64,000 bases of DNA from a bacterium (GTDB taxonomy: Bacteria > Patescibacteriota > Minisyncoccia > UBA6257 > 2-01-FULL-56-20): the NCBI GenBank assembly GCA_027310625.1, contig DAIDAM010000003.1:2239-66238 (forward strand). Direction: 5' to 3'. Under the pieces are notes generated by a model. That model was not told the DNA's origin and did not search any database. It saw nothing but the letters and a program-made list of their open reading frames with translations. Within the stretch, counting starts at the first letter, position 1; every line of letters starts with the position of its first letter. Below are positions 8,197-53,645 of the stretch, piece by piece. Made by a program: the position numbers and the translations under genes.

Positions 8197-8249
8197 TGTG
8201 GAAAACAAATGGAAAACAAAAAACTTTTGAAACAATCATCAAAAGTAAA

Positions 8250-33863: not shown

Positions 33864-34145
33864 ATGGGGCTTAAGGAAAATTACCTTAAAGAACTCAAAA
33901 AAAGGGCTGCGGAATCGAGAGTTTATAAAAAATATCAGCTCTTCGGACTTGAAATCGCTTCGCTTCTCGGAGACGAAAAACACAAATCGCTTTACATAAA
34001 ACTTGCGAAAGAAAACAACCCGGAAAAACTCTTGGGTATAGCCAAAAAAATCTCTGAAAACAAGAATGTAAAAAACAAAGGAGCGTATTTTATGACAATT
34101 GTTAAGACATCAGTCATCAGACACAAGACACCAGGGAGAAAATGA
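33864..34145 (+). CDS. hypothetical Lys-rich small protein
   Basis: ORF only, AT/Lys-rich. Confidence 0.25.
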   Translation: MGLKENYLKELKKRAAESRVYKKYQLFGLEIASLLGDEKHKSLYIKLAKENNPEKLLGIAKKISENKNVKNKGAYFMTIVKTSVIRHKTPGRK

Positions 34146-34516
34146 GCAAAATAAAATCTTTTCAGGAATTGAAAGTTTGGCAGGACGCGCACAAATTTAC
34201 GATTCTCATTTATAAAATAACAGAGAAGTTTCCCGCCAGCGAACAATTTGGACTAACCCTACAATTAAGACGCTCGGCGTCGTCAATCGGCGCGAACATT
34301 GCCGAAGGATTTGGAAGATATCACTACAGAGAGAAAGTAAAGTTTTATCTAAACGCGAGAGGTTCAGCAGTTGAATCAGAAAATCATATTTTGCTTGCGA
34401 GAGATTTAAAATACACAACAACAATCGAATACGAAGCACTGCATGAGTTAATAAAAGAAATATTGAGAGAATTGAACGGCTTAATAAATTCAACCGGTAA
34501 AACTCGTAACGATTGA
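34142..34516 (+). CDS. four-helix-bundle protein (23S rRNA-intervening-sequence protein family), copy 1
   Basis: 'FQELKVWQDAHKFTILIYKITEKFPASEQFGLTLQLRRSASSIGANIAEGFGR'. Confidence 0.8.
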   Translation: MSKIKSFQELKVWQDAHKFTILIYKITEKFPASEQFGLTLQLRRSASSIGANIAEGFGRYHYREKVKFYLNARGSAVESENHILLARDLKYTTTIEYEALHELIKEILRELNGLINSTGKTRND

Positions 34517-34565: not shown

Positions 34566-35135
34566 ATGGATAAAATAGTCACAATAGAAAATAAAAAGGA
34601 CGAAAAATTTCTTCGCGAGAAAACGAAGAATTTTGACTTCGAAAAATTCAACAGAAAAGAAATAAATTCGCTGGTGGAAGGGATGAGGAAAGCGATGAAA
34701 ACGGCGAACGGCATAGGATTGAGCGCAAACCAAATCGGATTGGACATGCGCGTTTTCGTCGCCCAGATACAAAAAACCGACAGAATAGGCAAGGCGCGGC
34801 ATCTTTCGGCGGGAGAACAGAAATTTTACGCAATTTTCAATCCCGAAATAATAAAATCATCCGGAGAAAAAACGAAATCAGAGGAAGGATGTTTGAGCAT
34901 TCCCGGCTTTTATGGCGAAGTTGAAAGACCGGAGAAAATAACACTTGTCGGCATGGATAAAAACGGAAGGAAAATAAAAATAAACGCCTGGGGACTGCTC
35001 GCAAGAGTGTTCCAGCACGAAATGGACCACCTGAACGGCAAGCTGTTTATAGATAGGGCGAAAAAAGTTTATCATGTCCCGACTTCCGAGCGGTTAAAAG
35101 AGTATCAAGAATCAAGAAATATGAAGCATGAATGA
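34566..35135 (+). CDS. def: peptide deformylase
   Basis: 'EGCLSIPG', 'HEMDHLNG', 'GIGLSANQIG'. Confidence 0.9.
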   Translation: MDKIVTIENKKDEKFLREKTKNFDFEKFNRKEINSLVEGMRKAMKTANGIGLSANQIGLDMRVFVAQIQKTDRIGKARHLSAGEQKFYAIFNPEIIKSSGEKTKSEEGCLSIPGFYGEVERPEKITLVGMDKNGRKIKINAWGLLARVFQHEMDHLNGKLFIDRAKKVYHVPTSERLKEYQESRNMKHE

Positions 35136-35514
35136 AAATTCCAAAAAAATAAAAAATTTTACAGACCTGATTGCTTGGCAGGAAGCCCAAAAATTGATCC
35201 TGAGAATATACAAAATAACCAAAAATTTTCCGAGAGAAGAGCGATATTCTTTAACAGACCAAATAAGAAGAGCAGCAATTTCTGTTACGTCAAATATAGC
35301 TGAAGGATTCTCACGTAATTCCTACAAAGAAAAAATTTATTTCTATTCCATAGCGCAAGGTTCTTTAACAGAATTGCAGAATCAACTAATTCTCAGCAAA
35401 GATCTTGGATACCTCTCTAATAGTGATTTTGATGAAATTTTTGCGCACTCTGTTTCAACGCATAAGCTTATAAATGGATTAATAAAAGGAGCAAGAAAGA
35501 TTTCTCTTGCATGA
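35128..35514 (+). CDS. four-helix-bundle protein (23S rRNA IVS protein family), copy 2
   Basis: 'FTDLIAWQEAQKLILRIYKITKNFPREERYSLTDQIRRAAISVTSNIAEGFSR'. Its start overlaps the def stop. Confidence 0.8.
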   Translation: MNENSKKIKNFTDLIAWQEAQKLILRIYKITKNFPREERYSLTDQIRRAAISVTSNIAEGFSRNSYKEKIYFYSIAQGSLTELQNQLILSKDLGYLSNSDFDEIFAHSVSTHKLINGLIKGARKISLA

Positions 35515-35524: not shown

Positions 35525-36448
35525 ATGATTCTTAATTCTCGATTTGTTTTCTTCGGCACGCCGGAATTTGCCGCAACAATCCTTGAAAAGCTGATAAGTT
35601 CCGGATTTGTTCCGGAGGCGGTTGTCTGCAACCCCGACCGCCCCGTCGGCAGGAAGAAGGTTATCACTCCCCCGCCGGTGAAACTGCTAATTATGAAGCA
35701 GGAAGCAAGAATCAAGAAGCAAGTTAAAATTTTTCAGCCAGAAAAATTAGATAAACAATTTCTTGATTCATTATTCTTGATTCATGATTCTTTTGATTTT
35801 TTTGTCGTTGCCGCCTATTCCCAAATTCTCCCTAAAGAAATAATCGAAATACCGCGGCTCGGAACAATCGGCGTCCATCCTTCGCTTCTGCCGAAATACC
35901 GCGGCGCCTCCCCCATCCAAGGCGCGATACTGAACGGAGAAAAGGAAACAGGCGTAACGCTTTATTTGATGGACGAGAAAACGGACCATGGGAAAATAGT
36001 ATCAAGTATCAGGTATCAAGTATCAGGGAATGAGAATTACAAAACATTGGAAAAAGAACTTGCGGAACTCGCGGGAAATCTGCTTGTGGAAACGTTGCCG
36101 AAATTCATCAAAGGAGAAATAAAACCCGTGCCGCAGGACGAATCAAAGGCGACCTACACGAAAAAATTCACGACTGAAGACGCGTTCATTGATGAAAAAA
36201 CTCTGGAAGAAGCGCTAAACGGAGAAAATGAAGAAACGGCTGAAAAAATCTATCGCAAAATTCTGGCTCTCAATCCCGAGCCGGGAACATGGACGTATGC
36301 GCGAGCACTGGAACATTCCAACGTTCTTGAGAATGTTGGAATGTCGTCTTCCGGCAAACGGATTAAGATTTTGGAGGCAAAAATTGAAAACGGAAAACTT
36401 GTTCTGAAAAAAATCCAGATTGAAGGAGAAAAACCCAAAGCCGTTTAG
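35525..36448 (+). CDS. fmt: methionyl-tRNA formyltransferase
   Basis: 'VFFGTPEFAATILEKL', 'NPDRPVGRKK', 'GVHPSLLPKYRGASPIQ'. Contains short in-frame repeat words (aagaatcaagaagcaag; agtatcaagtatcaggtatcaagtatcag). Confidence 0.9.
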   Translation: MILNSRFVFFGTPEFAATILEKLISSGFVPEAVVCNPDRPVGRKKVITPPPVKLLIMKQEARIKKQVKIFQPEKLDKQFLDSLFLIHDSFDFFVVAAYSQILPKEIIEIPRLGTIGVHPSLLPKYRGASPIQGAILNGEKETGVTLYLMDEKTDHGKIVSSIRYQVSGNENYKTLEKELAELAGNLLVETLPKFIKGEIKPVPQDESKATYTKKFTTEDAFIDEKTLEEALNGENEETAEKIYRKILALNPEPGTWTYARALEHSNVLENVGMSSSGKRIKILEAKIENGKLVLKKIQIEGEKPKAV

Positions 36449-38544
36449 CCGCGTCCCGATTCTTCCTCAACTTCCCAAACCTCTTTGCCGATATAGCGGC
36501 TGACCGCGTCCAGGTCCTTCATAAGTTTTTCTTCGCGGAGTTTTTCCTCCACGGAAATTTCTTTGCTCAATTTCACCTTGCGGATGACATTAAGTTCCGC
36601 TTCTATGTCGCGCTTCAAAATGGAAAACCCGCGGCGAACTGACTCTTCCGCTTCCTTAAGCATCGCATTGAGCCGGCGTTTCTTAACGTTGTAGTGATAA
36701 GCATGATAGACGGTGTAGGCGAGCAAACCGAGGAATGCAACAATGAATATGATGAAGAGAACGAGGTAAAGGTTCTCGAAACTCAAGCGCTTGCCGCCTA
36801 TTTGTATCGCCGTCTTCGCGACCGAAAGGTCCACTCGCGGGCTCGGCGGACTCACGCTGTCGCCATTCTGCAGCTGTGTCCAGGCGATATACTTGCCGGC
36901 GTCAAAGAATTTGGGGAAGGAGAAAAACCACGAACCGTCTTTGTCGGTCGTCGCCGTCTCCCCTATTGTGCTGCCGGTCTCCAGATTCTGAAGATAAATG
37001 AGAACTTTCGCCTGCGGAATTCCGGCGTTGCCGCCGATGTAAAGAATCTCGTCGTTCGAAATCGCCTGCGGGAAGAGAGTGACCACGGGCGGCTGCAGCG
37101 GAACGTTGTCTGTCGCCTGTGATTGCGATTGCGCGGCTTTCGCGGGAATGCCGGCGAACATCGAAAGCGAAAAGACGATTGCGAAGATGAGCGCTATCGC
37201 CAAATGTCTCCCGCCATATCCTTTGAATCTTTCCCTCATTTTTTTCAATTCTTCCAGTCCCGGAAGAATCGAGGGATGCTTCAGGCCGCCGTGCGCGAGG
37301 TGCTCTTCGATTTCGCGGTGCCGTTCCCAAAGCAGTTTCGCGAAATAGAAAAGTCCGATGAGAATTACGGCGCCGAGCGGCAGGGCGTAAATCCAGGGAA
37401 TGACGTATTCTCCTATGCCGATTCCTTCCAAATAAATAAATTCGAAGAATAGTTTTGTGATTGTCAGGTTTTGTTCCGTCTGATAATAGTTTCCCGCTTT
37501 GTCGTAGGCTTTGACGATGACTTTATAGCGTCCTTCGTCCAAATTGCGCGAATAAGGAGGCGCGGCCTCTATGAAAAACGGATTATTTCCCTGCGACGCG
37601 AGAGCGAGCTGTTTGTCGAGAGACGTGATGTTAAGTTCGTAATGGTCGATTCCGGAGGCGGCGTCGGTGGTTGCAAAATCGATAATCGGCCTGCGGTTGG
37701 AAGTTTGCCTGCTCGGCGAAATGTTTACTTTGAAAGACGCCGGCGGCGTGTTGTCCACATTTATGATGTAATCCGTTATTCCACCCCAGCTGCCGCTTCT
37801 CAGCGTTTTGATATGAAAATAGTAAACGCCGTCTGCTAAATTGTTGTACACTGCTCTCGTCTTAATACCTTCGGGAACATCGTCCACATCCGTAACAGGA
37901 TTCTGGTCGAGAATGTAACTGTAACCCTCGATATCCGGCGGGGAAGTCCATTCTAAAGAAACGGTTTTGGTGTTGTACCATTTTTCCTGGTCGGGGTTGG
38001 TTCTCGACGTGACTATCGGGCCAGCGGGCGGCGGCAGCGTGAGATAATAAACGCCGTCGGTCATTTGACCGAGAACGTTCGTGCCGCGGCCGTCGTTCAA
38101 AAGCACGCGCGAACTGTCGGAAAATTTCAAAACCGCCGTCCCGATGCTCTTTACGCGGAAAGTGACAGTTGAAATCAGTCCACCGTCGGTATTCAGCCCC
38201 GGCGCCGGTATCGCGCCCTGAAAATTAAGCGTGCCGTTCAGATTATCGTAAGACGGTTGGTTGACCCAGACCTGTATGGAAGACCTGCCCGCCGTAGGCG
38301 AAGCAACCTGCAGTTTATCCGGCGGAAAAGTGAGATTGGCTTCGACGGCGTTGACCGACTGCCCTCCCGTATCCACGTAAATGGAAACGGAAAAAGTGCT
38401 CCCGCTCGTGAAACTTCCGCTCGCCGGTGAAACGTAAAGCGAAGCGGCGGCATTCGCTCCTGACGGCGAAATAAAAAAACCGACGAAAAGGGCGCTTACC
38501 AAAACAACGGAAAAACGACAGGTTTTTGTCTGTTTATCCATCAC
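36445..38544 (-). CDS. large surface protein: signal peptide, cohesin-like domain, Ig/FN3-like domains, TM helix, cytoplasmic coiled-coil tail
   Basis: N-terminus 'LYVSPASGSFTSGSTFSVSIYVDTGGQSVNAVEANLTFPPDKLQV...TVTFRVKSIGTAVLKF' is cohesin-like. 'DNTPPASFKVNISPSRQTSNRRPIIDFATTDAASGIDHYEL' is paralogous to the 45030-45989 protein. TM 'VIPWIYALPLGAVILIGLFYF'. Confidence 0.65.
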   Translation of the reverse strand: MMDKQTKTCRFSVVLVSALFVGFFISPSGANAAASLYVSPASGSFTSGSTFSVSIYVDTGGQSVNAVEANLTFPPDKLQVASPTAGRSSIQVWVNQPSYDNLNGTLNFQGAIPAPGLNTDGGLISTVTFRVKSIGTAVLKFSDSSRVLLNDGRGTNVLGQMTDGVYYLTLPPPAGPIVTSRTNPDQEKWYNTKTVSLEWTSPPDIEGYSYILDQNPVTDVDDVPEGIKTRAVYNNLADGVYYFHIKTLRSGSWGGITDYIINVDNTPPASFKVNISPSRQTSNRRPIIDFATTDAASGIDHYELNITSLDKQLALASQGNNPFFIEAAPPYSRNLDEGRYKVIVKAYDKAGNYYQTEQNLTITKLFFEFIYLEGIGIGEYVIPWIYALPLGAVILIGLFYFAKLLWERHREIEEHLAHGGLKHPSILPGLEELKKMRERFKGYGGRHLAIALIFAIVFSLSMFAGIPAKAAQSQSQATDNVPLQPPVVTLFPQAISNDEILYIGGNAGIPQAKVLIYLQNLETGSTIGETATTDKDGSWFFSFPKFFDAGKYIAWTQLQNGDSVSPPSPRVDLSVAKTAIQIGGKRLSFENLYLVLFIIFIVAFLGLLAYTVYHAYHYNVKKRRLNAMLKEAEESVRRGFSILKRDIEAELNVIRKVKLSKEISVEEKLREEKLMKDLDAVSRYIGKEVWEVEEESGRG

Positions 38545-38574
38545 AATTATTATAACATTCTTGTTTTCGCGTTT

Positions 38575-39441
38575 TTATTTTGTTTTATAAAACCTTCCAA
38601 AAAAGAAAATAAACGAAAAAACAATAAGCACAACCAGCAAGGTTATCCCCGGCCCCCGGATAAACGCTTTCCAGTCATAGGCAGCCACGAGAGCGACATT
38701 GCCTTTATTGTCGGAAGCTGAAATTTCAACTGCCCAGACATTTTTCCCGACGGCGGCAGGATTGGTTATCTCCTGCCAATCCGTCCACAAAAACCAATTT
38801 TTCAGACGACCGCGAATTTCCTTGACGCCCGAGCCGGCGTCTTTGACGAGGAAACCGACTAGTTTTTGTTCCGGATTCAACGGGTCGGCGCTTAGAGAAA
38901 GCTCCTTTATTTCTGGCGGGGTTTTGTCGGTGACGCCCGATTCGCTTGCAAGATACTCTGAAGTTGACTTGGTAAGAACAATTGGCGCGGGTTCGACGAT
39001 TGGAGTATACTCCGTCCCCTTTCCGTCATTTACATAAACAAGCGGGTTTATAAACGAAAGCTCAATTTTCCCTTCTTTAAGAACTTGGAATCGCGCGATG
39101 ATTATCTCTCCGCCGCCGCCGCTGAACGGCGTTATGCTTACTCCGGCAAGCGCTATCGCCCCGCTTTCCGAAAAAGCAGGTCTTGTCTGCCATACGCTTA
39201 TAATGGAACGGCTGTCATCAAAGGAAACAATCTTAATCTTGTCCGCGGGAAAAGAAATGCCCAAAGAATACCCGTTCAACGGAGAATCGGAGTCAATCAA
39301 TGCCTTGACGGAAATTTCGGAACCGACGGCGGCAGACTCGGGAGCCGAAAAATAAACTTTTGTTGAAGAAGCGTCGGCGAAATGTGAAGAAACAAAGAAA
39401 GTCAGTGCGGATATAAGGATGATTAAATTTGTTTTTTTCAT
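38575..39441 (-). CDS. cohesin-like domain surface protein with C-terminal TM anchor
   Basis: Signal peptide, 'VYFSAPESAAVGSEISVKALIDSDSPLNGYSLGISFPADKIKIVSF...IIIARFQVLKEGKIELSF', C-terminal TM. Confidence 0.6.
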   Translation of the reverse strand: MKKTNLIILISALTFFVSSHFADASSTKVYFSAPESAAVGSEISVKALIDSDSPLNGYSLGISFPADKIKIVSFDDSRSIISVWQTRPAFSESGAIALAGVSITPFSGGGGEIIIARFQVLKEGKIELSFINPLVYVNDGKGTEYTPIVEPAPIVLTKSTSEYLASESGVTDKTPPEIKELSLSADPLNPEQKLVGFLVKDAGSGVKEIRGRLKNWFLWTDWQEITNPAAVGKNVWAVEISASDNKGNVALVAAYDWKAFIRGPGITLLVVLIVFSFIFFFGRFYKTK

Positions 39442-39480
39442 TTTTTCTAATTTCCAGATTCTAGTTTCCAGATTCTATTT

Positions 39481-40515
39481 TCACGATGCTATAGACCGGT
39501 AATATCTCTCGCCCGTCCAATAAAACATCATCACGGAAATGTCGGCGAAATCGACTCTGCTGTTTCCGTCAAAATCATATCGCGCAAACTCCGCTCCCCG
39601 CTCGCCATAAAAATAAATAAGTATTGAGAGGTCTATAAGATTAATTTTTCCGTCGCGATTCAGGTCAATCCTTGTGAAATCTTCCAGCGATGGTACGCGC
39701 GGGCCGAAGGGAGGCAAAAAGAACCCCGTTCCACCTCCCCCGCCTTGCTGAACGCCGCCACCATTATTGTTATTTTGCTGCTGTTGTTGCTGCTGGGAGC
39801 CGAAGAGCGCGAAGGAACTAAAATTGGCGGTAGAGAAAGTAACCGTTTTATTTGTAGTGTCGACTGTTGCCCCTGAAATTAATTGCCAAGAAGCATCACC
39901 GCTGCCCCACTTATAAGGGGCAAGGGTGCTTTGATCTATTCCGATAACATCGGAGTCGATATAAGTTGAAACAATAGTTGCCGTTTGCAGAAGAGTTGAA
40001 ACTGTCTCGCCGTCTGGGTTCACAAAAATGAAATCATAGGTTTTTCCTATAAAGTTTTTACCCGAGGGGGCCGGTTTGGTTGACGAAAAGAAACCGTTGG
40101 TATACGAAAACGCCTGCATCTGCAAGTCTTGAGTGTAAAAACCTGCCGGCAGAGTTATTTTAGCGGAGTCACCGCCGTTGGTTAGGGTGTAAGCACCACC
40201 AGTTGAAGCAGTAAAAGTTGGCTGTGCAGTTACCTCCGCACTGGTAGTGCAATTTGTTGTATTGAAAGTGCAAGAAGCGGAACAACTCAAAGTTCCGCTA
40301 CTAAAGCCGAGGTCGGTGCAACTTTTTACTCTCAAATCACTGCCATCGCACATTTCGCCGCCCTCCGCAGTATTATTTCCGCAAACCGAAATCTTGATTG
40401 TCGTATTTACCGTGGCATCTGGTGCGGCAAAACTAAATTTATGAAAAATAAAAAACGCGCCTCCAAAAACGAGTATGAAAAAGAAAAAATAAATAATTGA
40501 TTGATTGCTTTTCAT
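39481..40515 (-). CDS. secreted dockerin-domain protein with poly-Q/N/G linker
   Basis: C-terminal pair of Ca-binding dockerin repeats 'DLNRDGKINLIDLSIL' and 'DFDGNSRVDFADISVM'. Linker 'QQQQQQQNNNNGGGVQQGGGGG'. N-terminal signal peptide and Cys-rich module. Confidence 0.75.
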   Translation of the reverse strand: MKSNQSIIYFFFFILVFGGAFFIFHKFSFAAPDATVNTTIKISVCGNNTAEGGEMCDGSDLRVKSCTDLGFSSGTLSCSASCTFNTTNCTTSAEVTAQPTFTASTGGAYTLTNGGDSAKITLPAGFYTQDLQMQAFSYTNGFFSSTKPAPSGKNFIGKTYDFIFVNPDGETVSTLLQTATIVSTYIDSDVIGIDQSTLAPYKWGSGDASWQLISGATVDTTNKTVTFSTANFSSFALFGSQQQQQQQNNNNGGGVQQGGGGGTGFFLPPFGPRVPSLEDFTRIDLNRDGKINLIDLSILIYFYGERGAEFARYDFDGNSRVDFADISVMMFYWTGERYYRSIAS

Positions 40516-40564: not shown

Positions 40565-41179
40565 TCATTTTCTCGCTATTTGAAATTTAAACCTTTTGGA
40601 AATATACCAAAGCAAGGCCGCGACAAAAATCACCGCCAAAACAATGGTATCCCATGGGTGATAGCGCGAGTATAAACTGATAAAGCGGTAATAGATTCCT
40701 TGGAAAAAATTGGCTGGCGCAATTGTGAACCAAAGCTGAGTGGCAGCGGCAATGCCGATCGAAGTTTCGCCGGCAACAGATTTTTTCATCGGCTGGGCTT
40801 CCAAAAGCGCATAATAATTCCCCGGCGTTACTTTGGTCGGAAGAGTAAGTGTTACTTTGACGGTCTGGACCTTACCTGGTTCAAGAGAAAATGTTTGAGG
40901 CGTAAAAGTGAACCATTCTTCTGCCGGTCTAAGTCCCATATCGCTTCTCGTTTCCTGTTTTTCAAAGTATTGAACCGAAACTTGGTAATTAGCCGTCTCA
41001 TCGCCGGTGTTTAAAACCGGAACCGCCGGTAAATCATAAATACCGCCGGCTCTAAGCTGTTCATCTGTATAGATTTTGCCAGCACCAACTCCAACCCCGA
41101 TTCTGGCAAATACCGCAGCTGGCAGAATTAAAATCAGCGCAGATAATATTAAAAATTTTAACGCAGATTTAAAACTCAT
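40565..41179 (-). CDS. secreted beta-rich protein with C-terminal TM anchor and basic tail
   Basis: Signal peptide, then a C-terminal 'IVLAVIFVAALLWYISKRFKFQIARK'. The architecture recalls DUF916-type partners in WxL loci, which is an inference. Confidence 0.45.
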   Translation of the reverse strand: MSFKSALKFLILSALILILPAAVFARIGVGVGAGKIYTDEQLRAGGIYDLPAVPVLNTGDETANYQVSVQYFEKQETRSDMGLRPAEEWFTFTPQTFSLEPGKVQTVKVTLTLPTKVTPGNYYALLEAQPMKKSVAGETSIGIAAATQLWFTIAPANFFQGIYYRFISLYSRYHPWDTIVLAVIFVAALLWYISKRFKFQIARK

Positions 41180-41275: not shown

Positions 41276-41797
41276 TTAAAAGGCAATAGCTGTGAGAGTA
41301 ACATTGGGGCTCTGCTGTGTGAACACGGTTGAAGGATTCGGCGTTGTGATCTGCAAGTTCAAGGTCGAGGTTCCCGCCGCCGCTATATTAGTCGCCAGGT
41401 CCTGATCCGAAGTGGTTAACGCCGTGCCACCAGAAAAAGTGGAACAAGTACCATTCTTGAACTGATGCACATATTGATCGCTTGCCGTCGTAGCTCCCAA
41501 TGCCCAGTTGGCGGTGGCCACCCCCTTGATCCTGAAAGTTTCCGCCACATTGCCATCATTAGTAACGGTTTGAGCATCGTTTAGTTCTGAAGTGCATGTG
41601 CTCTTGCTGGTATTAGAGCCGAGTGTTCCATACGCGACCGCACCATCAGCAACGGAAAGCGAAATACTCTGCACCGTAACCGTGGCCGTAACTGTTGCCG
41701 AAGAACCAGCCAAAGCCACTGAATAAGCGACGAGTATCCCAGCTAGCCCGATTATTCCAGTAGAAACAACGAACGGTTTTGTAATTTTTCTTGACAT
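41276..41797 (-). CDS. small secreted protein; whole protein is the domain shared with the C-terminus of 42104-43981 (W-x-L motif)
   Basis: 'TCTSELNDAQTVTNDGNVAETFRIKGVATANWALGATTASDQYVHQFKNGTCSTFSGGTALTTSDQ' aligns with 'TKSTCSTELNDAQTVTNNGNVNENFNIRGQNSANWTLGATAGSNQYVQKFLNGTCSTFSGGTALTTSDQ'. Confidence 0.55.
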   Translation of the reverse strand: MSRKITKPFVVSTGIIGLAGILVAYSVALAGSSATVTATVTVQSISLSVADGAVAYGTLGSNTSKSTCTSELNDAQTVTNDGNVAETFRIKGVATANWALGATTASDQYVHQFKNGTCSTFSGGTALTTSDQDLATNIAAAGTSTLNLQITTPNPSTVFTQQSPNVTLTAIAF

Positions 41798-41924
41798 ATC
41801 TTTGTTAATTTAAATTTATACCAAACTTATAATTCGACCATTTAATAAACACAAAAAGCGCCGCTAAAACAGCGCCTTAAGTGTCTACGATTATAAGTAA
41901 AGAAGTAAAATCGCGGAGCGATTT

Positions 41925-41959
<35 letters not shown>

Positions 41960-42103: not shown

Positions 42104-43981
42104 TTACGGTTGTACGGCGGTAATCGTCACATCCACTGACTGTTGAGTGTAAACCGTGGAAGGATTCGGGGTGTTAATTTGAAGATTCAGCGTGGCTGTC
42201 CCGCTCGGCGCAATACCAGTCGCAAATGACTGATCGGAAGTCGTCAGGGCAGTACCCCCAGAAAAAGTGGAACAAGTACCATTCAAAAATTTCTGCACAT
42301 ACTGGTTGCTTCCCGCTGTCGCCCCCAGCGTCCAGTTGGCGGAATTCTGACCACGGATATTGAAATTCTCGTTTACATTTCCATTATTAGTAACCGTTTG
42401 AGCATCATTTAATTCAGTAGAACAAGTGCTTTTGGTGGTGTTCGCCGGGATCGTCCCATAAGTGACCACTCCATCGGAAACGGTGACAGAAATAGTCGGC
42501 GTCAATGTGGTGAAAGTGTTGCAAGTCGTAGAATCTGTGAAAGTATTACTGCCATCAGGGTCTTTGACTGACGCCTTCCACCAGTATTGGGTGTTGTAGG
42601 AGAGTGCATCAGCTGACTGTAAAGTAAAACTGCCTTGAGTGCCGGAGTTATAGCATGATGTTGGATTATTGGTGCAGGTCGCGTCAGTTCCGCCCCAACC
42701 GGTAGAATTAGTTGATTGGTCATGAGCATTTCCTACAACCGTCGTGCATGCGCTGTTCGAATAAATTGTGACTTTATAGCTCAAATGGTCTGGGTCGGGA
42801 TCGGTCGCGGTCATTAAAAAAGTTGGGGTTACCGAAACGCCAGTCGCGCTATTTGCCGGCGAATCCTGCGAAGGCGCGTTGGGCGCGACATTAGTGTTTT
42901 TTTTCGCGTAAACCACATTGAAATAGAGCGGCATGTTGTCCGTACCGGTATTGAAAGTGGCAGTAAGGGTATGGGTATGCGTCGAACCGGCGGCCGCGGT
43001 GCCACTTGTTGAGCTGCCCTTTGTTTTGGCGCTGGCTGCGCCGGACGCGCCGCTGGTTTCGTTGGCATGATCATGGGTTGTGGCGCCCTGTGAAGTGCCA
43101 TTATAACTCGTGAAGTCGCGAATAAATTGCTGATAAAAGGGGCCTCCACTTGCCGATTTTATTGTCCATGCCGAACCCGGATCGCCGTCGAACATGGCAA
43201 TCATTCCATTGGGCAAAGATGCAGTATTAGAATTCGCCTTGGCGATGATTACTTGAATATAAGGCGGGAGAGCTGTCATGCTTGCGGTTTGCGTAGCAGC
43301 GGGGGCAGTATGGGTATGCGTAGTTGCGGCACCTGCATTAGCTGTACCAGAGCAAGTATTGAGCGTACCGTTTGCAGTTCCAAGAGAACTCCAAGTAAGC
43401 GAATGGGTATGCGTGTCTGATCCTCCCGTGCCGACCGTGGAGTTAACTTCAATCATTTTATTGTTGATGGTGCCCGATTGATCAGTCCATCCTGAAGGAG
43501 CAGCTGCGTCAAAAATCGCGATTGCGCCGGCCGGAATGGAAACAGGAATGCCGGCGTCAAATTGAATGAGTTTATAACTTTGATAAGCCGGCAAATTGTT
43601 CGCCGACCCAACCGTGACGGAAAGCGAAGCGTGTGTGTGATTGTAGGAAGAACAAGAGTTGGTAGAAGCCGCAGTCGTTCCTGCTGATGGCGCGCTGTTT
43701 GTGACACTTGCTACCGTTGGCGTATGCGTGGAATTTCCTCCAGTCGTGCCGAAATTCGCCACCGCCTCTCCGCGCGGGAACTTTCCGTCATAAGTTGTTA
43801 CGATACTCCAGCCGGTCGGAGCAGACGCACCATCCCAAAAAAGAAGCATGCGCACTGTGGCGGCTTTTGCATCTTTTGCCCCCGGGGGCACGGGTGGATT
43901 ATTCCAAATTCGCGGCCAGCCGGAAAAAATCCAACCTGCTATTAAAACTATAATTAAAAATTTTTTTATATAACGAGACAT
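42104..43981 (-). CDS. large surface protein: N-terminal anchor, three phage-tail-collar-like repeats each followed by THTH segments, C-terminal shared (W-x-L motif) domain
   Basis: 'MLLFWDGASAPTGWS', 'IAIFDAAAPSGWTDQSGT', 'MIAMFDGDPGSAWTIK' resemble the 'FAGxxAPxGW' motif of phage tail collar/Mdp domains. 'GGSDTHTHSLTW', 'TTHTHTAPAAT'. C-terminal 160 aa homologous to 41276-41797. Confidence 0.55.
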   Translation of the reverse strand: MSRYIKKFLIIVLIAGWIFSGWPRIWNNPPVPPGAKDAKAATVRMLLFWDGASAPTGWSIVTTYDGKFPRGEAVANFGTTGGNSTHTPTVASVTNSAPSAGTTAASTNSCSSYNHTHASLSVTVGSANNLPAYQSYKLIQFDAGIPVSIPAGAIAIFDAAAPSGWTDQSGTINNKMIEVNSTVGTGGSDTHTHSLTWSSLGTANGTLNTCSGTANAGAATTHTHTAPAATQTASMTALPPYIQVIIAKANSNTASLPNGMIAMFDGDPGSAWTIKSASGGPFYQQFIRDFTSYNGTSQGATTHDHANETSGASGAASAKTKGSSTSGTAAAGSTHTHTLTATFNTGTDNMPLYFNVVYAKKNTNVAPNAPSQDSPANSATGVSVTPTFLMTATDPDPDHLSYKVTIYSNSACTTVVGNAHDQSTNSTGWGGTDATCTNNPTSCYNSGTQGSFTLQSADALSYNTQYWWKASVKDPDGSNTFTDSTTCNTFTTLTPTISVTVSDGVVTYGTIPANTTKSTCSTELNDAQTVTNNGNVNENFNIRGQNSANWTLGATAGSNQYVQKFLNGTCSTFSGGTALTTSDQSFATGIAPSGTATLNLQINTPNPSTVYTQQSVDVTITAVQP

Positions 43982-43983
43982 AC

Positions 43984-44535
43984 TTAAGGCGTACCCAATA
44001 CATTGGGATTTGTAATATCAAAAAGTGTTTCGGAAATAAAATTGGAGCTATTTTTGCAGGATTCGTAACTCACTCCCGCACCGGAGCCAATACAAGCATC
44101 GAAATCATAGCCGTATTCTACAAAGCTATAATGGCCCGGCGGTAAATTGGTAAGAGGGGTGCCATTATTGCCGAAACACTGCGGAGTGCATAAAGAAAAT
44201 TCTCCGACAGTCCGCATGGAATTGATATCTTGATCAAAATATTTAATCGCAGCACAGAGGTTATTGGCGGCATCCAGATTATTACTAATGGCAATCGGAT
44301 GGTCGGGTTTATCTAAATTATAGATAAAGCCGTTATGATTATTAAAATCAAAATCGCTGAAAGCTATTGCGCAAGCATTATCTGCCGCTGGAGTGGCAAT
44401 ATTTATCGCCCGCGCCTCTCTAATTTCTGGCGGTATTCGTAGATTTTGCCAAATCTGCGGCCGGCCGGAAAAAATCCAAGCAAAAATAATAAGAAATATA
44501 ATTCCTGTCCGTAAATATTTAATGTGCGCATTCAT
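43984..44535 (-). CDS. hypothetical protein sharing N-terminal anchor motif with 42104-43981
   Basis: 'IFAWIFSGRPQIWQNLRIPPE' versus 'IAGWIFSGWPRIWNNPPVPPG'. The DNA is also similar (ccaaat(c/t)tgcggcc(g/a)gccggaaaaaatccaa). Confidence 0.45.
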   Translation of the reverse strand: MNAHIKYLRTGIIFLIIFAWIFSGRPQIWQNLRIPPEIREARAINIATPAADNACAIAFSDFDFNNHNGFIYNLDKPDHPIAISNNLDAANNLCAAIKYFDQDINSMRTVGEFSLCTPQCFGNNGTPLTNLPPGHYSFVEYGYDFDACIGSGAGVSYESCKNSSNFISETLFDITNPNVLGTP

Positions 44536-44935: not shown

Positions 44936-45030
44936 AAACTGCTTGAGGCAAAAATTGAAAACGGAAAATTAATTCTCCGAAAAATTCAGACGGAGGGAGA
45001 AAAACCGAAACGCCTTTACGGTGTTTGAGT
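44936..45030 (+). pseudogene. fmt: relic duplicate of fmt 3' end (encodes ...KLLEAKIENGKLILRKIQTEGEKPKRLYGV*)
   Basis: Matches the fmt C-terminus 'KILEAKIENGKLVLKKIQIEGEKPKAV*' at 36365-36448. The first 22 nt are identical (ggcaaaaattgaaaacggaaaa), then ~75% identity. No upstream ORF. Confidence 0.7.
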
Positions 45031-45989
45031 CAGCGCTTGAAGCCGTCTTTTTCTATTTTGTTTATTTCTCGCCGTAATTCTTTGCCAAATTCGGCGGCAT
45101 CGCGCTCAACCGCATCTCTCAATCTCTTGAACCGCAGACCAATTAAGTACAAAGTGAATAAAACCTCGATTATCGTGAGCGGCAAAATCCACCAACTGGT
45201 GAAAAATATCAGCAACCGGTAAAGAAGCGACGCCGGCTCGGTTTTGGGCACAACGCTGAACTGAATCACCGAATCGCGGAAATTTCCCGCGAAATCGTAG
45301 GCGCGAACGGCCAGAATTCTTGAATACTTCGTAGATTGTTCGGGTAAAACGTAATCTCCGTCTTCGTTTTTCAAAATTTCGGGATTAAACCATTCCCCTT
45401 CCCCGATTTTCGCTTTCTCGTAGGCAACGCCGGATACTCTGTCGCTTGCTTTCCAGCCGAAAACCGGACGATTGCTTGAAATATCTTTGTCAACGCGCGT
45501 TATGTCAAATGACTCCGGCGGCGTCCTGTCCAAAAGAAAATGTTTTACTGTAATCGGCCCCCAATAACCCCTTTCGTTAAAGGCGACGGAAAAATAACGG
45601 TCGCCGTCAACAAGCGGCCTCAGGTCATACGCGGCTTCCGACACTCTTCCTTTGCTGACTTTCGGAAATTCGTAATTGAGATTTTCCGAAAAAACATAAT
45701 TCACGCCTTCCACTGCCGGAGGAATTTCCCAGCTGAATTTTATCGAATCCAAACTGTAGTACCTGCATTCAATTACATTCACGGGCGGTTCCGAATAAAT
45801 CACCGGAGCCGGGATGTAAGGAACTGTTGATGTTGTGCGATAGAGCGTAAACTCGTTCGGCAGAAGTATGCAGGAACCGGTCCACTTGCAAACAATCGGC
45901 GTGCTTCTCACCCACAAAAGAGAAAAAATTATCGCGGCGGTGACGGCGATTATCAAAACAATCACGCCGACGTTGCCTTTGGCATTCAT
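45030..45989 (-). CDS. membrane-anchored surface protein with Ig/FN3-like ectodomain, paralog of central part of 36445-38544
   Basis: N-terminal TM, 'DRTPPESFDITRVDKDISSNRPVFGWKASDRVSGVAYEKAKI', 'VRAYDFAGNFRDSVIQFSV', C-terminal TM plus charged cytoplasmic tail. Confidence 0.55.
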   Translation of the reverse strand: MNAKGNVGVIVLIIAVTAAIIFSLLWVRSTPIVCKWTGSCILLPNEFTLYRTTSTVPYIPAPVIYSEPPVNVIECRYYSLDSIKFSWEIPPAVEGVNYVFSENLNYEFPKVSKGRVSEAAYDLRPLVDGDRYFSVAFNERGYWGPITVKHFLLDRTPPESFDITRVDKDISSNRPVFGWKASDRVSGVAYEKAKIGEGEWFNPEILKNEDGDYVLPEQSTKYSRILAVRAYDFAGNFRDSVIQFSVVPKTEPASLLYRLLIFFTSWWILPLTIIEVLFTLYLIGLRFKRLRDAVERDAAEFGKELRREINKIEKDGFKR

Positions 45990-50555: not shown

Positions 50556-51008
50556 TTACTGGGTCAAAGAAATTGCGGTTCCGAGTTCTGCTGATGGCGC
50601 GCTGACGGTTACGCGTCCGGTGCTGGATGAAACCGAAACGTTATAGCCGCTGTCGTAGTCGGAAGTGCTCGTCCAGTGCGCTCCCGTCGCCGACGGGTCG
50701 AAGGGCATATTCGGAAGATAGGTGGGAACAACGCAACCCGCTATGTCGTATCCCCCGGTGTTCGCCATTTTTGTAGCCGTTTGAGGCAAAGCCCCCGCGG
50801 CGCAAGTGAAGATGCCTTTGTTGTCGGCCATGTTTTGTCCGATGGCGTTAAGTATTGCAAGAACGTTGGACTGTCTTTGCGTATTCCTTGCCTGAGCAAA
50901 CTGCCTTGCGGGGTTCAACGCAACTATTACTACCGCCGCCAAGATAGCTATGATGCCGATCACAACGAGAAGTTCTATCAAAGTGAAACCTTTCCTTGAT
51001 TGAAACAT
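50556..51008 (-). CDS. pilA: type IV major pilin (PilA-like)
   Basis: 'MFQSRKG|FTLIELLVVIGIIAILAAVV', the class III prepilin leader with cleavage/methylation site. 150 aa. Confidence 0.85.
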   Translation of the reverse strand: MFQSRKGFTLIELLVVIGIIAILAAVVIVALNPARQFAQARNTQRQSNVLAILNAIGQNMADNKGIFTCAAGALPQTATKMANTGGYDIAGCVVPTYLPNMPFDPSATGAHWTSTSDYDSGYNVSVSSSTGRVTVSAPSAELGTAISLTQ

Positions 51009-51083
51009 AATTTGAAAACCTGTAATTTCTCGACCTTTCTGATTTGTTTGATTATACCAAAAAGGAGAATTAATTTATCCACA

Positions 51084-51152
51084 CCCCCACACCAAACAGC
51101 AATTGCGCTTCGCGCAGATTCAATTTTGCAAAAGTTGCCGTTTGGTGTGGGG
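51084..51152. repeat. MITE-like element copy (arms CCCCCACACCAAACAGCAA / TTGCCGTTTGGTGTGGGGG, internal GCGCTTCGCGC hairpin)
   Basis: Sits between the pilin start and the upstream pseudopilin stop. Its internal sequence matches the partial copy at 965-1030. Confidence 0.7.
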
Positions 51153-51153
51153 G

Positions 51154-51585
51154 TCAGAAATTAGGCAATTCTTCCCGTCTCACAACGGAAAGAGTTGAAG
51201 AATTCACGGTAACCTTGAGATTTGTAAATGAGGAATTGAACTGCGCCTGTGTTGAAATCACTTTTTCTGCGGTTCCGCTCGCAACAATTGAAATTATTCT
51301 GCACGTATCGCTTGCAATGGAAATCGTTTCATTGCCGGAGTAAGAACTGTTCTGTGATAACTTCAAGAGCGCTTCTTCCACGCACGCCCTTGCAAGCAGT
51401 GAGCTCTTTTCCTTGTAAGAGGTGGTGGAAATATTAACGCGCGAAAGAAAAGAACCCGTGCTGATTACAAAAATTATCACGAGAACCATCGCGCCGATGA
51501 AAATGGCGGAAGTCAGAGCGATGTATCCCCCACACAACTTGCTTATGCGGGGGACAAGCCCTTCTTTGTTTTTAGAAAAGCTCAT
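51154..51585 (-). CDS. pseudopilin/minor pilin with extended leader (…LVPRISKLCGG|YIALTSAIFIGAMVLVIIF)
   Basis: Hydrophobic pilin-like helix after a Gly. Conserved leader motif shared with 52118 and 54158. Confidence 0.6.
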   Translation of the reverse strand: MSFSKNKEGLVPRISKLCGGYIALTSAIFIGAMVLVIIFVISTGSFLSRVNISTTSYKEKSSLLARACVEEALLKLSQNSSYSGNETISIASDTCRIISIVASGTAEKVISTQAQFNSSFTNLKVTVNSSTLSVVRREELPNF

Positions 51586-52118
51586 CTCAGATAAATTGTA
51601 TTTTCAATGGTTGTGGAAGCCCTTACAACTGCCTCGGATGTGGAAGCAACCACAGATAAAGTTATCCGGACTGCTTCAGGCGCAGTTCCGGAAGCAACAA
51701 GATGAGAAAAAACGATTTCCGTCACGTTTACGTTCCCGTTTGTAAGCGGAGCGGCAGTTCCGCCACCGCGACCCAAACGGACAGAGCCGGACGAAACGTC
51801 AAAAGTAAGAGGATTTTGCGAAAAATTGTATCTACTAAGGGTTAGAACGGAAGACGTCGCTCCTGCGGCCGGCGAGGAAACGCTTTCCGCGGAATTCAAA
51901 GCCCAAACGATTTTTCTCATCAAAAAGTCGGCTTCCGTTTCAACCTCGCGACGTGTTCTGTTTTGCGATTCCAGCGAAACAATTTGATAAAAAATTATCA
52001 CCGCAAAGCTGATGACTATCGCAAAAAGACCGGAATAAACCAGGGTTTCTACAAGAGTGAATCCTCCGCATAACTTGCTTACGTGGGGGACAAGTCCCCT
52101 TTGCAGTTTCTTTCTCAT
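51582..52118 (-). CDS. pseudopilin/minor pilin (MRKKLQRGLVPHVSKLCGG|FTLVETLVYSGLFAIVI)
   Basis: Start moved to the internal Met. The extended ORF-track N-terminus has no support. Confidence 0.65.
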   Translation of the reverse strand: MRKKLQRGLVPHVSKLCGGFTLVETLVYSGLFAIVISFAVIIFYQIVSLESQNRTRREVETEADFLMRKIVWALNSAESVSSPAAGATSSVLTLSRYNFSQNPLTFDVSSGSVRLGRGGGTAAPLTNGNVNVTEIVFSHLVASGTAPEAVRITLSVVASTSEAVVRASTTIENTIYLR

Positions 52119-52120
52119 TT

Positions 52121-53596: not shown

Positions 53597-53645
53597 ATTT
53601 TTATTTCTTGCCCGGTTGCCGGTCACTGGTTACTGGTCGCTCTTT

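What the first reader, a model, noticed from the sequence alone, without database searches (positions are those of the whole stretch)
36445..40515. Cohesin-dockerin pair in a putative small-genome bacterium
Two proteins carry cohesin-like beta-sandwich N-terminal modules: 36445-38544 (with TM and a cytoplasmic coiled coil) and 38575-39441 (with a C-terminal anchor). The neighbouring secreted protein ends in a canonical double Ca-binding dockerin (DLNRDGKINLID / DFDGNSRVDFAD) behind a poly-Q/N/G linker. A membrane-anchored cohesin scaffold plus a dockerin-bearing cargo suggests a mini-cellulosome-like or, more plausibly here, a cell-cell attachment complex. That would be relevant to an epibiotic lifestyle.
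Basis: partly seen in the sequence, partly recalled or inferred. Interest (0 to 1): 0.6.

Follow-up and report, generated by a model that had tools for sequence, protein, structure and literature searches.

The report
Conserved cohesin–dockerin surface cassette in Parcubacteria
Three adjacent genes of an ultra-small (CPR/Patescibacteria) bacterium encode two membrane-anchored proteins with cohesin modules and one exported protein ending in a dockerin; the trio is kept together in dozens of related lineages, so it is probably a built-in way of holding a variable protein on the cell surface, not a cellulose-degrading machine.

Summary

The main new result is synteny. The order C, B, A recurs in 51 of 59 Patescibacteria loci that have enough upstream sequence. 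In 1.2 Mb around A genes, 68 of 70 dockerins sit at this position.

A is more complex than described. It has a signal peptide, a cohesin, two Ig-like modules, three transmembrane segments, a second ectodomain and a conserved cytoplasmic helical tail. The dockerin stays constant across lineages, but the domain it carries varies (at least 18 types). In this window that domain is a Cys-rich repeat plus a ZU5/GAIN-like β-domain.

There are no CAZymes, no multi-cohesin scaffoldin and only one dockerin, so a cellulosome is rejected. The best reading is a non-cellulosomal surface-display or receptor complex. Binding itself, which cohesin is the partner, and any host-attachment role remain untested. 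I found no description of it in the literature searched.

The parts
36445..38544 (-). Gene A: 699-aa polytopic membrane protein. Signal peptide, cohesin, two Ig/FN3-like modules, TM1, cytoplasmic loop, TM2, second Ig-like ectodomain, TM3, conserved cytoplasmic helical tail. The database copy P0001 is 698 aa, so the real start is probably the ATG at 38541.
   Evidence: ORF. Pfam Cohesin and Big_13. More than 455 homologs of about 700 aa at 42-63% identity, those that carry a name all from Patescibacteria. 2643 clusters (50% identity) at E<=1e-30. AF2 model.
38029..38445 (-). Cohesin module of A (residues about 34-172). It is the most conserved region of the protein.
37450..38028 (-). Two Ig/FN3-like modules of A (residues 173-365). 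The second is shared with B. The region as a whole is shared with H (45030-45989) and repeated many times in giant surface proteins.
   Evidence: AF2 strands at 178-362. Big_13, Y_Y_Y and DUF7743 partial hits. hhalign to B. midA HMM hits. Multi-repeat giants.
36448..37413 (-). Membrane-embedded and C-terminal half of A. TM1 (residues 378-400), basic cytoplasmic loop (401-447), TM2 (448-466), second Ig-like ectodomain (485-588), TM3 (592-612), cytoplasmic helical tail (613-699).
   Evidence: Hydrophobicity scan: the three segments recur in nearly all of 40 homologs. K+R counts around each TM follow the positive-inside rule. AF2 gives beta strands at 487-587 and helices at 589-660 and 665-698. 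ecto2A and tailA HMMs recover the A gene in essentially every related locus (79 of the 80 distinct loci).
38575..39441 (-). Gene B: 288-aa single-pass membrane protein. Signal peptide, cohesin-like module (about residues 24-160; nt 38962-39372), one Ig-like module (about 171-255), C-terminal TM (266-284; nt 38590-38646) and a basic tail.
   Evidence: A B-type gene lies directly upstream of A in 52 of 59 loci.
39481..40515 (-). Gene C: 344-aa exported dockerin protein. N-terminal signal peptide or signal anchor (residues 1-30), Cys-rich repeat (about 44-90), ZU5/GAIN-like beta domain (about 95-241), disordered Q/N/G linker (242-276), C-terminal dockerin.
   Evidence: AF2 mean pLDDT 87.4. Foldseek matches.
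39511..39687 (-). Dockerin module of C (residues about 277-335). Two Ca-binding F-hand loops, D284-D295 and D314-D325, each followed by a helix (LSILIYFY and ISVMMFYW).
   Evidence: Pfam PF00404 at 33.1 bits, above GA 22.9. Weak matches to solved dockerins 2y3n_B, 5k39_B and 4fl4_A. Conservation of D1, N3, D5, D/N9, D12, S14 and I15 in both repeats of 57 orthologs. Helices in the AF2 model.
39793..40233 (-). Cargo beta domain of C (residues 95-241) with a ZU5/GAIN-like fold. This is the lineage-variable part of the cassette.
   Evidence: pLDDT of the 10-residue blocks 91-98. Foldseek hits to ankyrin ZU5 (3f59, 3kbu; E 1e-5, TM 0.65), GAIN domains (4dlo, 8vy2, 9mqr) and NLRP1 FIIND (7crw). This cargo type occurs in only 3 of 68 dockerin proteins compared.

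Best explanation
This is a non-cellulosomal cohesin-dockerin cell-surface complex encoded by a conserved three-gene cassette (C, B, A).

Proposed mechanism:
1. Proteins A and B are inserted in the cytoplasmic membrane with their N-terminal cohesin modules outside. A is held by three TM segments and B by one C-terminal TM.
2. Protein C is exported through its N-terminal signal sequence.
3. C's C-terminal Ca-loaded dockerin docks non-covalently onto the cohesin of A and/or B, at the end of a flexible Q/N/G linker. This holds C's N-terminal 'cargo' domain at the cell surface.
4. The platform (cohesins plus dockerin) is conserved across Parcubacteria. The cargo is swapped between lineages, so the cassette acts as a generic display or receptor platform for a lineage-specific ectodomain.
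5. That ectodomain is most plausibly a binding (adhesion or ligand-recognition) domain.
6. A's conserved cytoplasmic loop and helical tail suggest the platform is coupled to something inside the cell.

Shown here: module identities, topology, synteny, conservation pattern.

Inferred: the physical cohesin-dockerin contact, which cohesin is used, Ca dependence, and the biological role.
For: Module identity:
- B cohesin at family level.
- C dockerin: Pfam above GA, with complete Ca-loop residues.

Functional linkage:
- Of 59 loci with at least 3 kb upstream of an A homolog, 51 have both a B-type cohesin gene and a dockerin gene on the same strand in the same order. Six more have the dockerin gene.
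- In 1.20 Mb of such loci, 68 of 70 dockerin ORFs and 145 of 146 cohesin ORFs belong to the cassette.

Topology puts all three modules on the same (outer) side:
- Each cohesin directly follows a signal peptide.
- The positive-inside rule holds in 40 homologs.
- C has an N-terminal hydrophobic leader with an S-F-A/A-P site.

Conservation pattern:
- A's cohesin is the most conserved part of A (0.74 majority frequency; 57% mean pairwise identity).
- The dockerin is conserved (47%), while cargo regions fall into at least 18 unrelated clusters.
- In 4 loci without B (L029, L030, L046, L064; a fifth, L044, has an assembly gap), the dockerin gene sits 30-67 nt from A, so there A's cohesin is the only candidate partner within the locus.

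The closest structural relatives include experimentally proven non-cellulosomal cohesins of A. fulgidus (2xdh) and C. perfringens (2vo8, 2w1n).
Against: - No binding test of any kind was possible. AlphaFold-Multimer is not available here and the structure jobs were exhausted.
- B itself does not reach any Pfam cohesin threshold.
- The dockerin's putative contact positions (L/I-V at 10/11, F/L-S-I at 13-15) differ from the classical clostridial Ser-Thr pairs, so specificity cannot be read from known rules.
- The distance-matrix correlation of dockerin with B is not domain-specific (r 0.54 with B's cohesin and 0.54 with the rest of B). It therefore shows shared gene history rather than contact.
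- A's high conservation and cytoplasmic domains are not needed for a simple anchor.
- A genome-wide dockerin census could not be done, so other partners elsewhere in the genome are not excluded.
- C's long hydrophobic leader could be an uncleaved signal anchor. In that case all three proteins would be membrane proteins interacting in cis.
Confidence: 0.62

Rival explanations
1. Host-attachment adhesin complex. The cassette's role would be to glue the ultra-small cell to a host cell. C's cargo domain binds the host surface, and the mechanically strong cohesin-dockerin bond transmits the load to the membrane anchors.
For: - Cargo domains are variable between lineages, as expected for host-specific ligands.
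- The cargo here is a Cys-rich repeat plus a beta-sandwich of a fold used in eukaryotic adhesion receptors.
- The cassette lies downstream of genes for large surface proteins, and about 10 kb from a type IV pilus cluster.
- Cultured Paceibacteria/Minisyncoccia attach to host cells (abstracts listed: PMC9763046, PMC12281837; PMC10936435 read).
- This is a sub-case of the best explanation, not an alternative to the cohesin-dockerin contact.
Against: - No evidence for any host ligand.
- Many cargo versions are tiny (about 100-120 aa) or are plain Ig tandems.
- The lifestyle of this organism is unknown.
- Some Parcubacteria are reported as free-living (title of PMC12625730, listed).
- The conserved cytoplasmic tail of A is unexplained by pure adhesion.
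Confidence: 0.3
2. Envelope-structural or signalling platform. A is a conserved transmembrane receptor or organiser, for example anchoring an S-layer-like coat or sensing an extracellular cue. Its cytoplasmic loop and coiled-coil tail engage an intracellular partner. C is its extracellular ligand-binding or coat subunit, and B is a co-receptor.
For: - A is conserved at 42-63% identity over its full length in several hundred listed homologs, including the cytoplasmic tail (majority frequency 0.64) and loop.
- The family has at least 2643 clusters at 50% identity.
- The polytopic topology with two ectodomains is unusual for a mere anchor.
- The best Foldseek match to the whole A model is an archaeal S-layer protein built of Ig-like domains (7ptp), although that match only reflects tandem Ig domains.
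Against: - No recognisable signalling domain (kinase, anti-sigma, GGDEF and so on) in A, B or C.
- The tail matches nothing in the PDB beyond generic TM-plus-helix proteins.
- No conserved cytoplasmic partner gene was found in the neighbourhood clustering.
- C is too small and variable for a typical S-layer protein.
Confidence: 0.25
3. The modules do not interact with each other. The cohesin-like modules would be just another kind of Ig-like spacer in surface proteins, and the dockerin a Ca-binding stabilising or wall/glycan-binding module. Adjacency would reflect co-regulation of surface proteins only.
For: - Non-cellulosomal cohesins and dockerins often occur as orphans with unknown partners (own knowledge: Peer et al. 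2009, FEMS Microbiol Lett).
- No binding data here.
- The mirror-tree signal is not domain-specific.
Against: - 68 of 70 dockerins lie immediately upstream of cohesin genes, and 51 of 59 loci keep the exact triad order across deeply diverged lineages. That is hard to explain by co-regulation alone.
- The cohesin is the most conserved region of A, implying a conserved ligand.
- Cargo is swapped but the dockerin is kept.
Confidence: 0.12
4. Mini-cellulosome: a scaffoldin-enzyme complex for polysaccharide degradation.
For: Presence of Pfam Cohesin and Dockerin_1 modules. The nearest solved structures are mostly cellulosomal.
Against: - One cohesin per protein and no CBM.
- No glycoside hydrolase or any catalytic domain on the dockerin protein, in this window or in the dockerin-protein homologs listed (Pfam columns).
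- A single dockerin in 64 kb, and about one per 17 kb only at this locus in relatives.
Confidence: 0.02

Closest known systems
Non-cellulosomal cohesin-dockerin pairs: Clostridium perfringens GH84C/NagJ cohesin with the mu-toxin dockerin (PDB 2o4e, 2ozn, 2w1n, 2vo8), and the Archaeoglobus fulgidus cohesin-dockerin pair (PDB 2xdh)
   Same: - Single cohesin and single dockerin on separate, non-cellulolytic proteins.
- The cohesin is followed by an FN3/Ig-like module, as in 2w1n.
- The B-family profile hits the NagJ cohesin sequence over its full length.
- The A. fulgidus pair is a proven binder, used for surface display (PMC9705933; PMC12484212).
   Different: - Here the cohesins sit on integral membrane proteins, one of them polytopic with a conserved cytoplasmic tail.
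- There are two different cohesin proteins for one dockerin.
- The three genes form a syntenic cassette conserved across a whole candidate superphylum branch.
- The dockerin carrier has no enzyme domain.
- Binding is unproven here.
Cellulosome anchoring scaffoldins (for example C. thermocellum OlpA/OlpC/SdbA, R. flavefaciens ScaE, A. cellulolyticus ScaC; PDB 3ul4, 4dh2, 2zf9, 4uyp)
   Same: - A cell-surface-anchored protein with a single cohesin captures a dockerin-bearing protein.
- The dockerin is a duplicated 22-residue F-hand segment at the C-terminus.
   Different: - Anchoring is by transmembrane helices rather than SLH domains or sortase.
- No enzymes, no CBM, no multi-cohesin primary scaffoldin.
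- Dockerin contact positions are hydrophobic (L-I/V, F-S-I) rather than Ser-Thr or Ala-Leu.
- The organism is a CPR bacterium with no sign of polysaccharide degradation in the window.
C. acetobutylicum CaCohA2-CaDoc0917 (PDB 6kgc, 6kgf; PMC7608827)
   Different: It is a cellulosomal pair. The relevance of dual binding sites to the two-cohesin situation here is only an analogy.
ZU5 / GAIN / FIIND beta-sandwich domains of eukaryotic ankyrins, adhesion GPCRs and NLRP1 (for C's cargo domain only)
   Same: - Foldseek E 1e-5 to 1e-4, target-normalised TM 0.65.
- An invariant Phe followed usually by Ser lies in the tight turn between the last two strands.
- The last strand, SSFALFG, resembles the aGPCR 'Stachel' TNFAVLM (own knowledge).
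   Different: - No sequence-level match to Pfam ZU5 or GPS.
- No conserved His.
- The residue after the Phe is Gly in some close homologs, so autoproteolysis is not supported.
- Fold similarity only.

Membership tests
Cohesin module (Pfam PF00963) | Sequence match to the family HMM above the curated gathering score | tested here: met
   Protein A: 27.4 bits against GA 24.1, E 4.2e-6, residues 46-144. Most of the 120 listed homologs carry precomputed PF00963.
Cohesin module (Pfam PF00963) | Same HMM criterion applied to protein B | tested here: not met
   No Pfam cohesin hit for window B, even at E<=1. At family level, 9 of 45 B orthologs hit PF00963 (best 8e-7). The B profile hits solved cohesins 5aoz/5m2o/2jh2 (E 8e-5 to 2e-3). 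hhalign to the A family gives 100% probability, E 1.7e-40. B is therefore a divergent cohesin homolog, assigned by profile rather than by Pfam.
Cohesin module (Pfam PF00963) | Nine-stranded flattened beta-sandwich (jelly-roll) fold superposable on solved cohesins | tested here: met
Cohesin module (Pfam PF00963) | Binds a dockerin | not testable with these tools
   No multimer prediction or experiment was available. The only support is indirect: the conserved gene triad.
Dockerin type I module (Pfam PF00404) | Sequence match above the gathering score | tested here: met
   33.1 bits against GA 22.9, E 6.4e-8, residues 284-330.
Dockerin type I module (Pfam PF00404) | Tandem duplicated segment. 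Each copy is a 12-residue EF-hand-like Ca loop (D/N at positions 1, 3, 5, 9, 12) followed by a helix. | tested here: met
   DLNRDGKINLID (284-295) and DFDGNSRVDFAD (314-325), 30 residues apart. Positions 1, 5 and 12 of repeat 1 and positions 1 and 12 of repeat 2 are invariant Asp in 57 orthologs, and positions 3 and 9 are N/D/S. AF2 helices at 293-301 and 323-343.
Dockerin type I module (Pfam PF00404) | Ca-dependent folding and cohesin binding | not testable with these tools
   Needs biochemistry or a multimer model.
Cellulosome | Scaffoldin with several cohesins, usually with a CBM | tested here: not met
   A and B each have one cohesin and no CBM.
Cellulosome | Multiple dockerin-bearing carbohydrate-active enzymes | tested here: not met
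   There is one dockerin ORF in 64 kb, and it has no catalytic domain. 68 of 70 dockerins in 1.2 Mb of related loci are this same gene. The whole genome was not available.
Non-cellulosomal cohesin-dockerin systems | Cohesin and dockerin on separate proteins of an organism without cellulolytic machinery | tested here: met
   the window encodes typical CPR housekeeping genes plus T4P, T4SS and competence genes, and no CAZymes were seen among the proteins scanned.
ZU5/GAIN autoproteolytic domains (cargo of C) | Fold similarity | tested here: inconclusive
   Foldseek E 1e-5, target-normalised TM about 0.65, about 10-17% identity. No Pfam ZU5 or GPS hit.
ZU5/GAIN autoproteolytic domains (cargo of C) | Conserved nucleophile (S/T/C) after the scissile bond, and a conserved His general base | tested here: not met
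   Residue 233 is S, G or T among homologs. There is no invariant or nearly invariant His in the domain.

The most novel reading that the evidence does not exclude
The cassette could be a bacterial analogue of an adhesion receptor.
- The near-symmetric two-repeat dockerin of C would bridge the two different membrane-anchored cohesins (A and B) at once, forming a ternary complex.
- Force or ligand binding on C's ZU5/GAIN-like cargo domain would be transmitted through the mechanically strong cohesin-dockerin bond. This might involve cleavage or strand release at the conserved F-S turn.
- The signal would pass to A's polytopic membrane part and its conserved cytoplasmic coiled coil, coupling host contact to an intracellular response in Parcubacteria.
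Probability: 0.06. Interest if true: 0.85.

Novelty: new variant of a known kind. Interest (0 to 1): 0.58.

Why it matters
Parcubacteria/Paceibacteria make up a large share of bacterial diversity, yet almost nothing is known about the molecules on their surface or how they contact other cells. This is a widespread cassette: at least 368 species-level genomes matched in one scan, and the A family has at least 2643 clusters at 50% identity. It is built from modules whose binding chemistry is well understood, and the exchangeable outer domain marks where lineage-specific recognition would reside.

That makes a concrete, cheap experiment possible: express three small modules and test Ca-dependent binding, then use labelled cargo domains as probes for the unknown partners of uncultured CPR bacteria. 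It would also add a membrane-integral, two-cohesin/one-dockerin arrangement to the known non-cellulosomal uses of cohesin-dockerin pairs.

Tried and rejected
1. Homolog search with B alone returned only itself.
B's fold therefore rests on profiles.
3. Mirror-tree test for the dockerin's partner. Dockerin distances correlate best with B's cohesin (r 0.54) and less with A's cohesin (0.39). They correlate equally with the non-cohesin part of B (0.54), so this is gene-level co-history, not contact evidence. Inconclusive.
4. The idea that loci lacking B have single-repeat dockerins (one repeat per cohesin) was rejected. They have two repeats with a longer spacer.
5. An attempt to link the upstream genes E and F to the 300-aa Thr/Ser-rich proteins upstream in other loci, by iterative HMM, did not expand beyond L062 and L072. 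D-G are not part of the conserved core.
6. Autoproteolysis of the ZU5/GAIN-like domain was considered and judged unsupported: no conserved His and a variable +1 residue.
7. The profile of the A family against PDB sequences found nothing informative for the cytoplasmic tail.
8. NCBIfam gave no useful assignment.
9. The promoter/terminator scan showed counts near shuffle expectation. The only strong terminator-like hairpins lie between F and E (41855-41929), which is compatible with E-D-C-B-A or D-C-B-A being one transcription unit but proves nothing.
10. Five literature searches for cohesin/dockerin in CPR, Patescibacteria or Parcubacteria found no description of this cassette.

Full report
**What is in the sequence**

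They are separated by 30 and 39 nt. More same-strand genes for exported proteins lie upstream: D at 40565-41179, E at 41276-41797, F at 42104-43981, G at 43984-44535 and H at 45030-45989. Convergent fmt and def lie downstream.

**Module identities: A**

- Pfam assigns Cohesin to A above the curated threshold: 27.4 against 24.1 bits, residues 46-144.
- An AlphaFold2 model of A was built on 40 homologs (mean pLDDT 78.7; most 10-residue blocks of the cohesin score 84-94, one 73).
- These include type I (1ohz, 2vn5), type II (5k39) and type III (5n5p, 2zf9) cohesins, and the non-cellulosomal cohesins of Archaeoglobus fulgidus (2xdh) and Clostridium perfringens (2vo8, 2w1n).
- Foldseek agrees, finding 6kgf_C and 2w1n.

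**Module identities: B**

B gets no Pfam cohesin hit of its own. Family-level evidence settles it in favour of a cohesin:
- A against B by BLASTP gives 29% identity, E 7e-13.
- 9 of 45 B orthologs reach Pfam Cohesin.
- A profile of the B family hits the sequences of solved cohesins 5aoz/5m2o (E 8e-5 and 2e-4), and the C. perfringens NagJ cohesin over its full length.
- hhalign of the B family against the A family gives probability 100%, E 1.7e-40.

That hhalign alignment shows B to be A's cohesin plus A's third module.

**Module identities: C**

- Pfam assigns Dockerin_1 to C above threshold: 33.1 against 22.9 bits.
- C has two complete Ca loops, D284-D295 and D314-D325.
- Positions 1, 3, 5, 9 and 12 of both loops are conserved in 57 orthologous dockerins. 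So are the following S14-I15 and the terminal YW motif.
- The Q/N/G linker is predicted to be disordered.

**Architecture and topology**

- signal peptide
- cohesin (34-172)
- two Ig/FN3-like modules (173-365)
- TM1 (about 381-399)
- a basic loop
- TM2 (448-466)
- a second Ig-like ectodomain (485-588)
- TM3 (594-612)
- a helical tail of about 85 residues

The hydrophobic segments recur in nearly all of 40 homologs. K+R counts on each side of every TM follow the positive-inside rule. This puts both ectodomains outside, and the loop and tail inside.

B is a signal peptide, cohesin and one Ig-like module, followed by a C-terminal TM and a basic tail.

C is a hydrophobic leader with an S-F-A/A-P site, a six-Cys repeat, a confidently modelled beta domain (residues 95-241; pLDDT of its 10-residue blocks 91-98), the linker and the dockerin. 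I could not tell whether the leader is cleaved or acts as a signal anchor.

**Distribution and synteny**

A belongs to a large family of about 700-aa proteins at 42-63% identity. Every homolog that carries a name comes from Patescibacteria (Liptonbacteria, Nomurabacteria, Kaiserbacteria, Jorgensenbacteria, Spechtbacteria, Buchananbacteria, Doudnabacteria and others). A scan of one genome per species found relatives in 368 stretches. A profile search of 1.84 billion cluster representatives found 2643 at E<=1e-30.

I built HMMs for the cohesin, dockerin and other A regions and scanned all ORFs of the fetched loci.
- Of 59 loci with at least 3 kb upstream of A, 51 carry a B-type cohesin gene and a dockerin gene on the same strand, in the order C, B, A.
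- Six more have the dockerin gene only. In some of these the gap is B-sized, so B was probably missed.
- One has B only and one has neither on that strand.
- In 1.20 Mb of these loci, 68 of 70 dockerin ORFs and 145 of 146 cohesin ORFs are members of the cassette.
- The 64-kb window itself holds exactly one dockerin and two cohesins.

The upstream genes D-G are found in only 2-3 other loci and are not part of the conserved core.

**Conservation pattern**

- Within A, the cohesin is the most conserved region: majority-residue frequency 0.74, against 0.63-0.66 for the other ectodomains and 0.64 for the tail.
- Across 61 triads, mean pairwise identity is 57% for A's cohesin, 47% for the dockerin, 29% for B's cohesin and 23% for the rest of B.
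- The N-terminal 'cargo' parts of the dockerin proteins fall into at least 18 clusters. These include Ig tandems (22 loci), a 'YRW' domain (11) and small domains of about 120 aa (9). The window's type (Cys-rich plus beta domain) occurs in only 3.

So the docking parts are constant and the displayed part is exchangeable.

**Which cohesin is the partner?**

This is unresolved.
- Dockerin distance matrices correlate better with B's cohesin (r 0.54) than with A's cohesin (0.39). They correlate equally with the non-cohesin part of B (0.54). This reflects shared gene history rather than an interface.
- In four loci that lack B altogether (a fifth has an assembly gap), the dockerin gene directly abuts A, so A's cohesin must be the partner there if there is one.
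- The dockerin's two repeats are nearly symmetric in the family consensus. Alternate or simultaneous binding of A and B is conceivable but untested.

**Most likely mechanism**

A and B present cohesins on the outer face of the membrane. C is exported and captured through its Ca-loaded dockerin, displaying a lineage-specific domain on a flexible linker.

- Shown: module identities, topology, linkage and conservation.
- Inferred: the contact itself, its Ca dependence, its stoichiometry and the biological role.

A cellulosome is rejected. There is one cohesin per protein, no CBM, no catalytic domain on the dockerin protein or the homologs listed for it, and only one dockerin.

Host attachment is plausible. 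The cargo is variable, large surface proteins are encoded just upstream, and a type IV pilus cluster lies at about 50.5-56.4 kb. It is not demonstrated. A's strong conservation and cytoplasmic domains point at least as much to a conserved platform or receptor role.

**Comparison with known systems**

The closest known systems are the non-cellulosomal cohesin-dockerin pairs of C. perfringens toxin complexes and of A. fulgidus, and the single-cohesin anchoring scaffoldins of cellulosomes (PMC9705933; PMC12484212; Peer et al. 2009 and Adams et al. 2008 from my own knowledge).

This cassette differs from them in several ways:
- Anchoring is by integral membrane helices, one protein being polytopic with a conserved cytoplasmic tail.
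- There are two distinct cohesin proteins for one dockerin.
- The gene order is fixed across a large CPR clade.
- The cargo is exchangeable and non-enzymatic.
- The dockerin contact positions are hydrophobic.

Five full-text searches found no description of this cassette. Database annotation stops at 'cohesin domain-containing protein'. I rate it a new variant of a known kind.

**Side observation on the cargo**

C's beta domain matches ankyrin ZU5, adhesion-GPCR GAIN and NLRP1 FIIND domains by Foldseek (E about 1e-5, TM 0.65). An invariant Phe232, followed usually by Ser, sits in the tight turn before the last strand, SSFALFG. That geometry recalls the autoproteolytic sites of those families. 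However, there is no conserved His, and the +1 residue is Gly in close homologs, so self-cleavage is not supported.

**Limits**

- No multimer prediction or experiment was possible.
- B's structure was not predicted.
- The whole genome was not available for a dockerin census.
- Taxon labels of many TPA assemblies ('uncultured Candidatus Saccharibacteria', one 'Gammaproteobacteria') are probably unreliable.

Noticed in passing
window 39793-40233 (-), residues 95-241 of protein C: The cargo beta domain has a ZU5/GAIN/FIIND-like fold (Foldseek E 1e-5, TM 0.65). An invariant Phe232-Ser233 sits in the turn before the last strand, SSFALFG, which resembles the adhesion-GPCR tethered-agonist strand. 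There is no conserved His, and the +1 residue is Gly in some homologs, so autoproteolysis is doubtful.
   Followed up: partly
window 40565-41179, 41276-41797, 42104-43981, 43984-44535 (all -): These are four further exported proteins directly upstream of the cassette.
- D (204 aa) has a signal peptide, an Ig-like domain with weak fn3_5, PapD_N and WxL-interacting-protein hits, and a C-terminal TM.
- E (173 aa) and the C-terminus of F (625 aa) share a domain of about 135 aa with no Pfam match.
- F has His-Thr-rich 'THTHT' motifs and resembles parts of 1400-2000-aa giant surface proteins that precede the cassette in other loci.
- The D-E-F arrangement recurs only in L062 and L072.
   Followed up: partly
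window 45030-45989 (-): Protein H (319 aa) has an N-terminal TM, an Ig-like region homologous to A's middle modules (HMM E 4e-20), and C-terminal hydrophobic segments. It looks like a cohesin-less paralog of A. No Pfam hit.
   Followed up: partly
window 50556-56437 (-): Type IV pilus gene cluster: two pilin-like proteins with N-terminal methylation motifs (50556-51008, 51582-52268), an LVIVD-repeat beta-propeller protein (52121-53626), PilC-like T2SSF (54133-55215) and a PilB/T2SSE ATPase (55208-56437). It is on the same strand as the cassette but separated from it by plus-strand genes and a tRNA-Gln.
   Followed up: no
window 34142-34516 and 35128-35514 (+): Two paralogous '23S rRNA intervening sequence protein' four-helix-bundle genes (PF05635, E 7e-36 and 6e-39; the second also bAvd-like) bracket the peptide deformylase gene, between the cassette's neighbour fmt and the upstream genes. 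A PF05635 gene also lies near the cassette in locus L003.
   Followed up: no
window 11901-13652 (+) and 14450-15859 (+): A VirD4/TrwB-type type IV secretion coupling protein with a treble-clef zinc finger, and a ComEC competence channel. These are typical CPR DNA-uptake and transfer genes. The neighbours at 8196-10064 and 10153-11880 have little or no Pfam match.
   Followed up: no
window 59548-62003 (-): A restriction-modification pair: an Eco57I/N6-type DNA methyltransferase (59548-61059) and an AccI-like restriction endonuclease (61056-62003). A tRNA-Ile (anticodon TAT) lies just beyond, at 62197-62271.
   Followed up: no
loci L029, L030, L046, L064 (related genomes): A sub-lineage lacks the small cohesin gene B. 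There, a short dockerin protein (84-191 aa) lies 30-67 nt from A, on the opposite strand in L029. Its two dockerin repeats are separated by a longer spacer containing a conserved 'LGLGRPSPD' motif.
   Followed up: partly
protein representatives P0229, P0230, P0231, P0250, P0269 and others: A's middle Ig-like module (residues about 173-365) occurs as up to 31 tandem copies in giant proteins of 1700-5800 aa. Short forms of A (about 400-470 aa: cohesin, Ig modules, TM1 and loop, without the second ectodomain and tail) are also common.
   Followed up: no
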